The notes below the pieces were generated by a model, which had not been told where the DNA came from, ran no database searches, and was given only the letters and a program-made list of their open reading frames with translations. Shown in pieces: positions 2,787 to 4,189 of a stretch of 11,196 nucleotides of DNA. The stretch is from a virus (taxonomy: Duplodnaviria; Heunggongvirae; Uroviricota; Caudoviricetes). The translations under genes and the position numbers were made by a program. The stretch spans positions 1 to 11,196 of IMG/VR virus record IMGVR_UViG_2541047814_000003. The stretch is one strand, 5' to 3'. The stretch's first letter is position 1. Each line of letters opens with the position of its first letter.

Positions 2787-3122
2787 TTATCGGGCCAGCG
2801 GCTGAACGGATACGCCGGAACCCGCAAAGGCGGCGCATTTTTTCGCATCGGTGTCGACGCTCTCAGGCCAGTTAACGGCGGCAATATTGAATATCCCCGT
2901 CTTGTAACACTGTGCTGATTTCTGCTTTGACGTGTCCACAGGGTACGAGGTCAGATAAACAGCCTTGCCAGATTCCTTACCATCCCACGGCTTAAACTCG
3001 CCATTGTCCGCCAGCATCAGCGGGGTAAATTCCTGAATAACGCCAGCATCAGCGGCAAAATGTACCAGCGTCGTGGCGACCTGCTGACTGCCTGCAAATA
3101 ACTCAATGTATGGAGTGTCCAT
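2787..3122 (-). CDS. Head decoration protein, lambda gpD-like
   Basis: 111 aa; TPLMLADNGEFKPWDG, YKTGIFNIAAVNWPES and KKCAAFAGSGVSV match recalled gpD segments (TPLMLDTSSRKLVAWDG, YKSGTFRYEDVLWPEA, KKRTAFAGTAISI); GGGGGA SD. Confidence 0.85.
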   Translation of the reverse strand: MDTPYIELFAGSQQVATTLVHFAADAGVIQEFTPLMLADNGEFKPWDGKESGKAVYLTSYPVDTSKQKSAQCYKTGIFNIAAVNWPESVDTDAKKCAAFAGSGVSVQPLAR

Positions 3123-3133
3123 AGAATCCCCCG

Positions 3134-4189
3134 TTAACCAATTTTGACGGTAACAAATTTGCGAATATCTGCCGGAACCGGCTGCGGTGCGCTGTGCGTC
3201 TGCACGTACTCAATCGCCGGATCGCCGTCCTCAATCCAGTTTTTCGGGTAAAACATGTTTTGCGTTGCGCCCGTTCTTACTGCGTCCTGATCCATAATCG
3301 CACCATAGGCCACCAGCCCTTTATTGTTGGTGTTGCCCAGGACAAGCAAATCAGGCTCAAGGAAATATTTTTCTGTGCCGTCGCTGTCAGTGTATTTGCC
3401 GGAATAGACGATAAGGGCAATATCGCCCAGATAGCCTTTAAAGCTCACCACTTCGCCCAGGTTTTTACAGGCCAGCTCTGCGGCGGACTCTGAACCACGG
3501 GAAAGATCGTACAGCTCACGGAATTTTTTAAAGCTGCGTAACGTTCGCCATACCTCAGCGCCCATAATCATGACGTTTGCGGGGCAACCAGCCTGATCGG
3601 CGTATAGTTCGATATCATAGATTGGATCGTGGGTTTCTTTGTCCTGCTCTGACCATTTTTTCCCGTCGGCCTGCTCTATGATGTTTTTTTCCGGTATCTT
3701 CCAGTCGATTTCATAGCGCTCTATGCCTTCGCCTTCAATGATGTTTTTTCCGGTCGTTACCGCATTTACCGCCAGCCATTCCACGCGCGCTTTTATGGCG
3801 TTTATCTGGCGGCGCATATTGCCAGTAATCAGGCGCATACGGCGATAGGTAGGGTCGTTAAGCTGTGCCGGATCTTCTCCAGCCATGCGCATGATGGTTT
3901 TCGTTGGATCGATTTCGTGCTTTGGCTTCATGTAGCCAGGTTTAATCGTGCTGGTTTCGTACCCTTTATCGCGCTGAACCTGGCTACCCACCATAGGCGA
4001 ACAAAACGCCGACATGGTGACTTCTTCAATGTCCAGGGTATCCAGCATGATGTTTTGCGTGCTGAATGTCGCCACGTTCGGGAAAAACAGCGTGGTAAAC
4101 AGCGGACTGAATTTAAATTCCGCAATATCCCCGCGATTCAGGTACGCAAAAAGCTGGTTAGTGTTAAGTGCCATTGCTTTTACTGTCAT
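3134..4189 (-). CDS. Major capsid protein, lambda gpE family (HK97 fold)
   Basis: 351 aa versus about 341 for lambda gpE; full-length by-eye alignment to recalled gpE (FKF.PLF..LFF; PGY.KPKHE; DPxYRR.R.I..NMR; WS..DK.T.DP.DDIE.YA; RGS.SE.E.A.K.LG..VS.KG.YGD.A.VVYSG.Y; F.P.N..VLGNT...GL..YG.I.D.DA.R.G; YPKNW...GDPA.E....QSAP); GGGGGT SD. Confidence 0.92.
   Translation of the reverse strand: MTVKAMALNTNQLFAYLNRGDIAEFKFSPLFTTLFFPNVATFSTQNIMLDTLDIEEVTMSAFCSPMVGSQVQRDKGYETSTIKPGYMKPKHEIDPTKTIMRMAGEDPAQLNDPTYRRMRLITGNMRRQINAIKARVEWLAVNAVTTGKNIIEGEGIERYEIDWKIPEKNIIEQADGKKWSEQDKETHDPIYDIELYADQAGCPANVMIMGAEVWRTLRSFKKFRELYDLSRGSESAAELACKNLGEVVSFKGYLGDIALIVYSGKYTDSDGTEKYFLEPDLLVLGNTNNKGLVAYGAIMDQDAVRTGATQNMFYPKNWIEDGDPAIEYVQTHSAPQPVPADIRKFVTVKIG

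What the first reader, a model, noticed from the sequence alone, without database searches (positions are those of the whole stretch)
2787..4189. Satellite-encoded full-length major capsid and decoration protein homologs without the rest of the head-assembly set
The gpE-like protein aligns across its full length and the gpD-like protein is complete, but portal, scaffold/protease and head-completion genes are not in the window. The element may build its shell from its own coat and cement proteins on helper-supplied portal and scaffold, possibly with altered capsid size to fit a small genome. This differs from scaffold-based size redirection (P4 Sid, SaPI CpmAB).
Basis: inference. Interest (0 to 1): 0.75.

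Follow-up and report, generated by a model that had tools for sequence, protein, structure and literature searches.

The report
PICI satellite's conserved capsid gene module

Summary
The window is almost a whole ~11-kb EcCICFT073-type PICI inserted between clpS and cspD. At 3134-4189(-) and 2787-3122(-) it does encode a full-length lambda gpE-type coat (44% identical to gpE; 347/350 identical to PDB 3BQW, from the CFT073 island) and a gpD/SHP-type decoration protein. Portal, protease, TerL, W, FI and FII are absent. The next gene (2361-2774) is a homolog of the C-terminal scaffold domain of lambda Nu3/phage 21 gp6, so "no scaffold" is wrong. With an upstream 68-aa gene these form a four-gene block (c1498-c1501 of EcCICFT073). 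It occurs in 598 of 5,426 complete E. coli genomes, is under purifying selection (dN/dS 0.11 for E and D), and no deposited phage has a coat more than 48% identical. The feature is already published: capsid and decoration genes were noted and deleted in 2018, and the whole block has been replaced by cargo without stopping transfer. Packaged DNA was phage-sized. So obligatory self-built or small capsids are not supported. Caveat: the published assays appear to have used islands marked inside c1499 or c1501, so an intact module was never compared with a deleted one. Most likely it is an auxiliary, self-matched shell set that is redundant with the helper's. Function remains open.

The parts
172..188 (+). 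Putative att core (AAATTAACTACACCATT), clpS-side end of the island
   Evidence: In the closest relative (L001) the same 17-mer recurs 22 nt beyond the integrase start. It is the longest exact repeat between the two flanks. It occurs once in the window; 0.01 matches are expected by chance. This implies an island of about 11.05 kb.
1320..1601 (-). Conserved 93-aa gene downstream of terS/rpp, function unknown
   Evidence: phrog_1561 at 1.1e-55, no Pfam hit. A 91-94-aa gene sits in the same position in all related islands examined.
1613..2155 (-). Full-length lambda Nu1-type small terminase (TerS)
   Evidence: Pfam Phage_Nu1 at 9e-23; phrog_57 at 1.9e-52 over residues 1-178. 34% identical to lambda Nu1 over 178 aa, including the C-terminal part. 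No sequence match to the RppC structure entries. EcCICFT073 has the 144-aa RppA at this position.
2230..2335 (-). Lambda-type cos site (exact cosN GGGCGGCGACCT at 2289-2300, with lambda-like flanks)
   Evidence: Exact 12-mer match. Read directly...ACGGGTCCTTCCTGGAATTATGGCCCGTTACG|GGGCGGCGACCTCGCGGTTTTTCGCTATTTATGA.... It lies immediately upstream of terS, as in lambda.
2333..2354 (-). Terminator-like hairpin GCCGGA-GAAA-TCCGGC followed by T6, ending the capsid operon
   Evidence: Read directly, 7 nt after the stop of the 137-aa gene.
2361..2774 (-). 137-aa Nu3/gp6 C-terminal scaffold-domain homolog (EcCICFT073 c1501)
   Evidence: Family and pairwise evidence as in the observation check. In addition, an exhaustive profile search finds a three-repeat Nu3-like protein, P0041, at 4.3e-9. 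AF2 model is all-helical with low confidence. dN/dS 0.33. c1501 is listed as 137 aa in the paper's supplement.
2787..3122 (-). 111-aa head decoration (cement) protein, gpD/SHP family (c1500)
   Evidence: Pfam HDPD at 2.5e-17; phrog_49 at 1.1e-26. Matches 1TD0 (phage 21 SHP) at 5.6e-13 and lambda gpD at 36% identity. dN/dS 0.11.
3134..4189 (-). 351-aa major capsid protein, lambda gpE family (c1499)
   Evidence: Pfam Phage_cap_E at 2e-52; phrog_29 at 3.4e-109. 347/350 identical to PDB 3BQW; matches lambda gpE 7VI9 at 7e-84. 44% identity to gpE. dN/dS 0.115.
4189..4395 (-). 68-aa protein, translationally coupled to the capsid gene (TAATG overlap); function unknown (c1498)
   Evidence: phrog_3255 at 8.4e-37; no Pfam or NCBIfam hit. 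AF2 model has two helices, pLDDT 73, and no fold match. Conserved upstream of E in the capsid clade with 65-100% identity. Overlap read.
4423..4479 (-). Conserved promoter-like site (TTGCTC, 16-nt spacer, TATAAT) overlapped by a palindrome (core ACTGGAT-GAAC-ATCCAGT) and a T-run
   Evidence: Read; hairpin reported. Conserved in 10 islands whatever lies upstream, with one paired change in the outer stem in L005. No similar DNA in phage records. Function is inferred only.
4650..4898 (-). PerC-family regulator
   Evidence: Pfam PerC at 2e-35, matching residues 41-118 of the 122-aa ORF.
5849..7681 (-). Primase/helicase (D5_N, DUF5906, Pox_D5), the island's replication gene
   Evidence: Pfam hits; phrog_864 at 1.6e-192.
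9339..9635 (-). AlpA-family regulator
   Evidence: Pfam Phage_AlpA at 4.8e-16.
9958..11196 (-). Tyrosine integrase (start codon at the window edge)
   Evidence: Pfam Phage_integrase at 1.1e-18 and Arm-DNA-bind_3 at 9.2e-17.

Best explanation
Identity (shown). This is the conserved late module of a classical cos-type Gram-negative PICI of the EcCICFT073 family. This copy is a TerS-carrying variant integrated between clpS and cspD. The module is one tightly packed four-gene operon:
- a 68-aa protein of unknown function;
- a lambda gpE-type coat protein;
- a gpD/SHP-type cement protein;
- a protein homologous to the C-terminal scaffold domain of Nu3/gp6.

The operon ends at a terminator immediately before a lambda-type cos site and the island's own Nu1-type TerS. 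It is an old, satellite-borne lineage rather than a recent copy of helper genes, and it is kept by purifying selection.

Mechanism (inferred). The three structural proteins are a self-matched set. After induction by a lambda-like cos helper, they would assemble into, or co-assemble with helper subunits into, normal-sized T=7-type shells. These would form on the helper's portal, use the helper's protease, TerL, head-completion proteins and tail, and then be cemented by the island's own D protein. Concatemers of the ~11-kb island would be packaged cos-to-cos; four copies make about 44 kb. The helper makes its own E, D and Nu3, so the module is redundant in lambda or phi80 laboratory lysogens. 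That would explain why deleting or replacing it gives no transfer defect. Its selective value would be conditional: insurance when helper coat supply or compatibility is limiting, or a wider helper range.
For: Identity:
- Island architecture and chromosomal flanks.
- Coat 99% identical to the CFT073 island protein 3BQW.
- The same four-gene block with identical gene lengths in CFT073 and eight other islands. These differ in integrase and att site, in primase versus RepA helicase, and in RppA versus TerS.
- c1499, c1500 and c1501 are 351, 111 and 137 aa in the 2018 supplement.
- cos site.

Live structural genes:
- dN/dS is 0.115 for E, 0.113 for D and 0.33 for the Nu3-like gene, with no disrupted copy among the 10 alleles.
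- 592 genomes carry at least 80% of the block.

Satellite lineage:
- The best of 50,697 phage records is 47.8% identical.
- Relatives at 52-87% identity are all in int-alpA-rep-E-D islands, in E. coli, Salmonella and Serratia.

Structural role:
- D accompanies E in every island examined, down to 52% coat identity. From established lambda biology (my knowledge), a cement protein is only useful on an expanded lattice of its cognate coat.
- A Nu3-type scaffold domain is present in the 65-100% clade.
- The coat has only small indels relative to phage coats.

Redundancy: c1499::cat islands and islands with c1498-c1501 replaced by cargo still transfer.

Precedent for a satellite coat homolog entering shells: SaPIbov5 Ccm.
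Against: - No experiment shows the island's coat or cement protein in any particle.
- Deleting c1499 or c1500 gave no phenotype in transfer or lambda interference, so a purely structural contribution is unproven.
- At 44% identity to lambda gpE, compatibility with a helper portal, protease or coat is uncertain.
- The Nu3-like gene lacks the N-terminal half of Nu3. It is absent from the Salmonella island L017 and replaced by an AlpA-like HTH gene in the 52-56% clade. It is therefore not essential to whatever E and D do.
- Recombination breakpoints fall inside the block. The window's 137-aa allele is identical to L007's while the coat alleles differ. This argues against tight co-adaptation.
- This copy has a nonsense mutation in its SSB gene, so the particular island may be decaying.
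Confidence: 0.45

Rival explanations
1. The island builds its own shell from its coat and cement proteins and changes capsid size, making small heads that fit one ~11-kb genome and exclude the helper genome.
For: - Satellite coat homologs do redirect size elsewhere: SaPIbov5 Ccm, and PmCI172 makes small heads and encodes a coat homolog.
- 19 fixed differences between the island clade and the phage clade cluster in two short coat segments, residues 128-156 and 330-342.
- The published size assay likely used islands marked in c1499 or c1501, so it may not have tested an intact module.
Against: - DNA packaged from lambda plus EcCICFT073 was all phage-sized, and no PICI monomer band appeared in CFT073.
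- Later work treats these islands as packaged in large capsids as multimers.
- Transfer does not need the genes.
- The coat aligns with lambda gpE almost without indels.
Confidence: 0.08
2. Interference module. The coat, cement and scaffold-like proteins are not used for the island's own particles. They poison or divert head assembly of particular lambdoid phages by dominant-negative co-assembly, or by competing with helper gpC/Nu3 for coat binding.
For: - PICIs commonly carry interference functions in this region.
- SatelliteFinder's authors describe the PICI capsid component as thought to modify hijacked capsids to block phage DNA encapsidation.
- A free Nu3 C-terminal domain could in principle compete with the helper protease and scaffold, which carry the same domain.
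Against: - Deleting c1499 or c1500 did not relieve interference with lambda. Expressing the individual genes located after the island's ori identified only c1503 (RppA) as inhibitory.
- A pure poison would not need a cement protein, yet D is always retained with E under dN/dS 0.11.
Confidence: 0.2
3. Non-functional remnant of a captured prophage head cluster that persists by hitch-hiking.
For: - The genes are dispensable in every published assay.
- PICIs are known to capture helper late genes.
- This copy already has one pseudogene, the SSB gene.
Against: - Ten of ten alleles are intact with identical lengths.
- dS reaches 0.38 with dN/dS about 0.11.
- The block is conserved across islands that have exchanged every other module, and even where IS21 has destroyed terS.
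- No phage source is more than 48% identical.
Confidence: 0.04
4. Non-structural role. For example, the coat or cement protein could act as a decoy or trigger for capsid-sensing defence systems, or the block could act as a regulator of helper late functions.
For: Only indirect evidence. There is no phenotype in transfer or interference assays. The operon has its own conserved promoter/palindrome leader and an uncharacterised 68-aa first gene.
Against: - Nothing in the sequences suggests a new activity.
- The coat is solved as an HK97-fold protein and keeps 117 of 186 phage-invariant positions.
- The cement and scaffold-like partners point to assembly.
Confidence: 0.1

Closest known systems
EcCICFT073 genes c1498-c1501 (classical E. 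coli cos-PICI; Fillol-Salom et al. 2018, 2019)
   Same: - Same four genes in the same order with the same lengths. The block is 97.3% identical in DNA and the coat 99% identical in protein.
- Same backbone: int, alpA, pri, SSB, PerC.
- Lambda-type cosN just downstream of the block.
   Different: - This island carries a full 180-aa Nu1-type TerS where EcCICFT073 has the 144-aa RppA.
- It is integrated at clpS/cspD rather than next to phoQ.
- Only one exact cosN was found, whereas two are reported for EcCICFT073.
- Its SSB gene has a premature stop.
Lambda / phage 21 head genes C-Nu3 (gp5-gp6), D (SHP), E (gp7)
   Same: Homologous coat (44%), cement (36% to gpD, closer to SHP) and scaffold C-terminal domain (39% to phage 21 gp6). 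Same cos/Nu1 packaging logic.
   Different: - Gene order is reversed: E-D-Nu3C instead of Nu3-D-E.
- The scaffold homolog is free-standing, lacks the N-terminal half, and is not nested in a protease gene.
- No portal, protease, TerL, W, FI or FII.
- The coat has an N-terminal extension, a 4-aa insertion, and clade-specific residues at 128-156 and 330-342.
SaPIbov5 Ccm (satellite-encoded coat homolog, S. aureus)
   Same: A satellite with a helper-type cos site encodes a homolog of the helper's major capsid protein. In SaPIbov5 that homolog is physically built into shells, as pentamers.
   Different: - Ccm changes shell shape and size and blocks the helper. For the E. coli islands, packaged DNA was phage-sized and deletion did not relieve interference.
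- No cement or scaffold partner was mentioned for Ccm in what I read.
Capsid-forming PICIs (cf-PICI, EcCIEDL933)
   Same: Same int-alpA-rep backbone type, and a satellite encoding its own coat protein.
   Different: cf-PICIs carry the complete head and packaging set: coat, protease, portal, head-tail connectors, HNH, TerS and TerL. They make their own small capsids. Here only coat, cement, a scaffold-domain protein and TerS are present. PICI and cf-PICI coat genes separate almost perfectly in phylogenies.
Helper-embedded PICIs (11capE type; Williams lab 2023)
   Same: Same island type with its own E gene. A relative with a 56%-identical coat (L015) is inserted in a lambdoid helper's E gene, as described for 11capE.
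   Different: The window's island is in the chromosome, not inside a helper late gene.
P4 Sid / Psu and SaPI1 CpmA/CpmB
   Same: Satellite-encoded proteins that act on helper-derived heads. P4 Psu is also a decoration protein (my own knowledge).
   Different: Those proteins are not coat homologs and work as external or internal scaffolds that shrink the helper shell. No Sid, Psu, Delta or Cpm family was found here.

Membership tests
Classical Gram-negative PICI (EcCICFT073 type) | Integrase at one end, with flanking att repeats in a specific chromosomal site | tested here: met
   Integrase at 9958-11196. 17-bp core at 172-188, repeated beyond int in the closest relative. Flanked by clpS and yljB/cspD. 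The second att copy lies outside the window and is inferred from L001.
Classical Gram-negative PICI (EcCICFT073 type) | AlpA-family regulator and a primase/replicase module, co-oriented with int | tested here: met
   Phage_AlpA at 4.8e-16. D5_N/DUF5906/Pox_D5 primase-helicase. All on the minus strand.
Classical Gram-negative PICI (EcCICFT073 type) | Small size (10-20 kb); no tail, lysis, portal or TerL genes | tested here: met
   About 11.05 kb. No such families in Pfam or PHROG scans. No tblastn hits for lambda A, B, C, W, FI or FII.
Classical Gram-negative PICI (EcCICFT073 type) | Packaging hijack element: helper-type cos site plus Rpp or TerS | tested here: met
   Exact lambda cosN with lambda-like flanks. 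Nu1-type TerS.
Classical Gram-negative PICI (EcCICFT073 type) | Induction, replication and high-frequency transfer dependent on a helper phage | not testable with these tools
   Shown experimentally for EcCICFT073, not for this TerS-type island. In the 2018 study the two TerS-encoding islands tested transferred poorly or not at all with resident prophages.
Lambda gpE major capsid family (Pfam PF03864, HK97 fold) | Full-length match above the curated threshold, and a solved HK97-type structure | tested here: met
   178.7 bits against a cutoff of 22.9. 347/350 identical to 3BQW, which is used in the literature as a PF03864 HK97-type structure.
Lambda gpD / phage 21 SHP decoration family (PF02924) | Match above the curated threshold over nearly the whole domain | tested here: met
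   63.5 bits against a cutoff of 29.1, profile positions 6-112 of 116. 1TD0 at 5.6e-13. Trimerisation and binding to expanded shells were not tested.
Nu3 / gp6-type head scaffolding protein | Homology to the C-terminal scaffold domain shared by gpC and Nu3 | tested here: met
   As in the observation check, plus the Nu3-like protein P0041 at 4.3e-9. Direct BLASTP and hhalign against lambda Nu3 alone were weak.
Nu3 / gp6-type head scaffolding protein | Full-length Nu3 architecture, nested in frame within an S49 protease gene upstream of D | tested here: not met
   Free-standing 137-aa gene downstream of D. No protease in the window. The N-terminal half of Nu3 is not matched. File it as a scaffold-domain homolog, not as Nu3.
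Capsid-forming PICI (cf-PICI) | Own portal, protease, head-tail connectors and TerL | tested here: not met
   None found.
Ccm-type capsid size redirection | Satellite coat homolog that causes small, satellite-sized capsids and interferes with the helper | not testable with these tools
   Published data for the 99%-identical coat show phage-sized DNA and no relief of interference on deletion. The strains carried markers in c1499 or c1501.
P4-like satellite | Psu-Delta-Sid operon | tested here: not met
   No such families in any scan.

The most novel reading that the evidence does not exclude
When the c1498-c1501 block is intact, the island supplies its own coat, cement and mini-scaffold. Some or all transducing particles would then have satellite-made or chimeric lambda-type shells on a helper portal. 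This could make the island partly independent of the helper's coat genes, for instance in helper-embedded copies that interrupt a helper late gene or with helpers whose coat is incompatible. It would have gone unseen because, as I read the published strain names, every published transfer, interference and DNA-size assay used islands with a marker inside c1499 or c1501, or with the block replaced. Classical E. coli PICIs would then be an intermediate between 'steal everything' satellites and capsid-forming PICIs.
Probability: 0.25. Interest if true: 0.65.

Novelty: already known. Interest (0 to 1): 0.3.

Why it matters
Coat genes are counted among the core components of Gram-negative PICIs, and about 11% of complete E. 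coli genomes carry this exact block. Yet no function has been shown for it, and engineers routinely delete it to make room for cargo.

Three points from this analysis sharpen the open question:
- The block is a self-consistent coat, cement and scaffold-domain set.
- It is an old satellite lineage under purifying selection.
- The published negative results appear to come from islands already disrupted inside the block.

If the proteins do enter particles, this would change how helper range, interference and the evolution of capsid-forming satellites are understood. It would also matter for PICI-based delivery vehicles.

Tried and rejected
1. Direct BLASTP of the 137-aa protein against lambda gpC/Nu3 and N15 gp6 gave nothing significant. 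hhalign against lambda Nu3 gave only E 0.008 at 5% probability, because the profile was shallow. The homology was established instead through phrog_1999, phage 21 gp6, Gifsy-1 gpC and P0041.
2. NCBI's name 'phage head-tail connector protein' for the 137-aa protein has no support in Pfam, NCBIfam or PDB sequence searches. I regard it as a mislabel.
3. AF2 model of the 137-aa protein: all-helical, pLDDT 49, too poor for a fold search.
4. 68-aa protein: I suspected a ribbon-helix-helix regulator. The AF2 model has two helices (pLDDT 73), and Foldseek against the PDB gave nothing below E=4. Left as unknown.
5. I wondered whether the conserved promoter/hairpin leader is a lambdoid Q-antitermination site. 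blastn of the leader against 50,697 phage records found no match. The palindrome overlaps the -10 hexamer and the expected transcription start, so an operator is at least as likely as a terminator. Not resolved.
6. TerS against the Rpp structures: no sequence match. It is a Nu1 homolog over its full length, not an Rpp.
7. Rfam scan of the window: no hits. No tRNA genes.
8. Rejected 'recent capture from a helper': no phage coat is more than 48% identical.
9. Rejected 'decayed prophage remnant': see the selection analysis.
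Full report
WHAT THE WINDOW IS. All credible genes lie on the minus strand. In gene order they are:
- tyrosine integrase, 11196-9958;
- AlpA-family regulator, 9635-9339;
- small genes, including a DUF4222 protein;
- primase/helicase with D5_N, DUF5906 and Pox_D5 domains, 7681-5849;
- an SSB gene and a PerC-family regulator;
- the block of interest;
- a cos site;
- a Nu1-type small terminase, 2155-1613;
- a conserved 93-aa gene, 1601-1320.

The whole window matches an island in E. coli 23CRST038 at 96% coverage and 96% identity. There it sits between clpS and yljB/cspD. 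A 17-bp sequence at window 172-188 recurs 22 nt beyond the integrase start in that relative. This gives an island of about 11.05 kb. There are no tRNA genes and no Rfam hits. This is the architecture of the classical Gram-negative phage-inducible chromosomal islands described by Fillol-Salom et al. 2018 (PMC6092414).

CHECKING THE OBSERVATION. The coat and cement assignments hold; the family and pairwise scores are given in the observation check. Two further points matter here. PDB entry 3BQW, 'putative capsid protein of prophage', is essentially this protein, so the coat has a solved HK97-type structure. Of ten lambda head and packaging proteins, only Nu1, D and E give significant six-frame hits in the window. 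A, W, B, C, FI and FII do not.

THE CORRECTION: A SCAFFOLD-DOMAIN GENE IS PRESENT. The gene 12 nt downstream of D (2774-2361, 137 aa) has no Pfam, NCBIfam or PDB sequence match. Five lines of evidence tie it to the Nu3-type scaffold:
- It belongs to phrog_1999 (3.7e-65) and weakly matches the extreme C-terminus of a head-maturation-protease family.
- Lambda Nu3 residues 117-200 hit phrog_1999 at 2.7e-26, and gpC does so at its shared C-terminus.
- The protein aligns with the last ~83 residues of the annotated phage 21 scaffolding protein (39% identity, E 6e-12).
- It aligns with the Gifsy-1 gpC homolog (E 2e-9) and with the equivalent ORF just upstream of the D gene in phage 204576.
- An exhaustive profile search of 1.8 billion representatives recovered a 195-aa protein with three repeats at 4.3e-9. 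That protein scores as a head scaffolding/capsid assembly protein.

The shared features are the repeat motif (IM.L.EA...LA..PGMT...A..IL) and the tail (F..FM..HSP). The island protein has two degenerate repeats plus the tail. Direct comparison with lambda Nu3 alone was weak, and N15 gp6 did not match. The AF2 model is all-helical but of low confidence. I call the protein a Nu3 C-terminal-domain homolog, not a full Nu3. It lacks the N-terminal half and is not nested in a protease gene. No paper in the searchable library links Nu3 with PICIs. Some NCBI records call it a 'head-tail connector protein', and I found no support for that name.

THE MODULE AS A UNIT.
- A 68-aa gene (4395-4189) overlaps the coat start codon (TAATG). 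E, D and the 137-aa gene follow with 11- and 12-nt spacers.
- A GC-rich hairpin with a T6 run closes the operon 7 nt after the last stop.
- Directly downstream lies an exact lambda cosN (GGGCGGCGACCT, 2300-2289) with lambda-like flanks, followed by the terS start.
- Upstream of the 68-aa gene, about 200 nt are conserved in ten otherwise mosaic islands. This stretch contains a promoter-like TTGCTC-16-TATAAT overlapped by a palindrome. No phage DNA resembles it.
- The four genes correspond to c1498-c1501 of EcCICFT073. The 2018 supplement lists c1499 as 351 aa, c1500 as 111 aa and c1501 as 137 aa. CFT073 shows the same layout at 97.3% DNA identity.

POPULATION AND SELECTION.
- The 2,035-bp block occurs in 598 of 5,426 complete E. 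coli genomes, and in 592 of them at 80% coverage or more.
- I examined ten islands. They differ in integration site (clpS/cspD, phoQ, tRNA-Ile/nfeF, thiM/rcnR, mdtJ), in replication gene (primase or RepA helicase) and in packaging gene (144-aa Rpp-type or 180-194-aa TerS). In all ten, the four genes have identical lengths and are intact. In one island terS is split by IS21 while the block is untouched.
- Pairwise Nei-Gojobori estimates give dN/dS of 0.115 for E, 0.113 for D, 0.33 for the 137-aa gene and 0.28 for the 68-aa gene. dS reaches 0.38 in E. This rules out decayed remnants.
- No record among 50,697 phage genomes encodes a coat more than 47.8% identical.
- Coats at 52-87% identity from E. 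coli, Salmonella and Serratia all sit in int-alpA-rep-E-D islands. All of these are 41-46% identical to lambda gpE.
- In an alignment of four phage and ten island coats, 19 positions are fixed differently in the two groups. They cluster at window residues 128-156 and 330-342. The island coats also have an N-terminal extension and a 4-residue insertion. I infer, without a structural check, that these lie in the P-domain and spine-helix region.
- The E-D pair is universal in these islands. The Nu3-like gene is confined to the 65-100% clade. It is absent in L017 and replaced by an AlpA-like HTH gene in the 52-56% clade.

WHAT IS ALREADY PUBLISHED.
[quoted passage not shown] Deleting either does not restore lambda plating or change transfer. 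DNA packaged from lambda plus EcCICFT073 lysates is phage-sized.
- The 2019 paper assigns interference and preferential packaging to RppA (c1503), and states that the island is packaged in phage-sized capsids.
- The helper-embedded PICI papers report a capsid gene in 21 of 29 reference Gram-negative PICIs.
- SatelliteFinder treats 'capsid morphogenesis' as a PICI core component.
- Synthetic islands with c1498-c1501 replaced by cas9 or melA are still packaged by phi80 delta-cos.

The finding itself is therefore known.

A CAVEAT IN THE PUBLISHED NEGATIVES. The reference strains in the 2018 tables are 'c1501::tetA' and 'c1499::cat'. Intergenic insertions in the same table are written as 'X-Y::cat'. 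c1501 is the 137-aa scaffold-like gene. On that reading, the c1499 and c1500 deletions were scored in a background already disrupted in the block. The lambda and phi80 experiments used an island without a coat gene. I could not see Figure S3, which shows the insertion sites, so this rests on nomenclature. If it is correct, the data prove dispensability. They do not test whether an intact block contributes protein to particles or affects head size.

MOST LIKELY MECHANISM. The following are shown: identity of the parts, their conservation, their satellite-specific lineage, and their dispensability for transfer. The rest is inferred.

A cement protein is only useful on an expanded lattice of its cognate coat, and a Nu3-type domain acts inside procapsids. 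Both statements are established lambda biology and rest on my own knowledge. Retention of a matched coat and cement pair, plus a scaffold domain in this clade, under purifying selection is best explained by real shell assembly. That assembly would use the helper's portal, protease, TerL, completion proteins and tail. It would give normal-sized heads that hold about four island copies (4 x 11.05 = 44 kb). Redundancy with the helper's own E, D and Nu3 would explain the lack of phenotype.

I put this at about 0.45. The rivals are:
- an interference role, 0.2;
- other non-structural roles, 0.1;
- size redirection, 0.08;
- a non-functional remnant, 0.04.

SaPIbov5 Ccm shows that a satellite coat homolog can be built into shells.

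VERDICT. The satellite identification is right. The obligatory own-shell and small-capsid interpretation is not supported by published work on a near-identical island. The feature is already known. The remaining interest is that its function is still unexplained, and that the existing negative results may not have tested an intact module.

Noticed in passing
window 5077-5079 (within the SSB gene, 4906-5319, minus strand): The island's SSB gene has a premature stop. Codon 81 is a stop where the closest relative has Trp, and the rest of the frame reads on normally. This copy therefore carries a pseudogenised SSB while the capsid block is intact. NCTC86 also has an internal stop in this gene.
   Followed up: partly
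window 835-1326: Repeat-rich non-coding stretch downstream of the 93-aa gene. There are five copies of a ~31-nt unit ending in ...TCAGCGAGTTACCGC, and two larger ~125-nt copies (835-958 and 1146-1268, 84-98% identical in parts). No Rfam hit. Function unknown.
   Followed up: partly
window 4423-4479 (minus strand): Conserved promoter-like site (TTGCTC, 16 nt, TATAAT) overlapped by a 14-bp-arm palindrome (core ACTGGAT-GAAC-ATCCAGT) and a T-run, just upstream of the capsid operon. It is conserved in 10 mosaic islands, with one paired change in L005. It could be an operator or an attenuator. No similar DNA in phage records.
   Followed up: partly
L018 (Salmonella, GCA_005980655.1) 2526-14165: A PICI carrying a lambda-type E/D pair (coat 52% identical to the window's) is inserted inside the tail sheath gene of a prophage with a P2-like tail module. 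The sheath N-terminal part is at 2526-3167 and the C-terminal part at 13260-14165. If that prophage is the helper and has a P2-type head, the island's coat would be heterologous to it.
   Followed up: partly
L015 (E. coli, GCA_012735115.1) 773-12891: A helper-embedded PICI splits a lambdoid prophage's E gene, leaving an 89-aa N-terminal piece and a 254-aa C-terminal piece. It carries its own E/D pair (coat 56% identical to the window's), as described for 11capE.
   Followed up: no
L014/L015 9402-9746; L016 10403-10756; L018 10363-10812: In the 52-56% coat clade, the gene after D is an AlpA-like HTH protein instead of the Nu3-like protein, and there is no 68-aa gene upstream of E. The Salmonella island L017 has nothing between D and terS.
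   Followed up: partly
L005 (E. coli 06-00048) 5406-8294: An IS21-family element (ISEc10) splits the island's terS, and the 93-aa gene has an internal stop. The four-gene capsid block is still intact.
   Followed up: no
window 2361-2774 and relatives P0001-P0035: Many NCBI records name the 137-aa protein 'phage head-tail connector protein'. No Pfam, NCBIfam or PDB evidence supports this. The homology is to the Nu3/gp6 scaffold C-terminus.
   Followed up: yes
window 4396-4650 versus L001 8398-9048: Compared with its closest relative, the window lacks about 400 bp between PerC and the 68-aa gene. In the relative this stretch holds two small hypothetical ORFs of 74 and 42 aa.
   Followed up: no
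window 8282-9328 (minus strand): The 348-aa ORF has no family hit and overlaps small plus-strand genes. In relatives these are annotated as a YlcI/YnfO family protein and a hypothetical protein, alongside an Icd-like gene. The long ORF is probably spurious.
   Followed up: no
window 3134-4189, coat residues 128-156 and 330-342: Nineteen positions are fixed differently between four lambdoid phage coats and ten island coats. They cluster in these two short segments, for example phage ...QSAPLM.L.DPDEF versus island ...HSAPQP.PA.I..F. They could mark a lineage-specific contact surface.
   Followed up: partly
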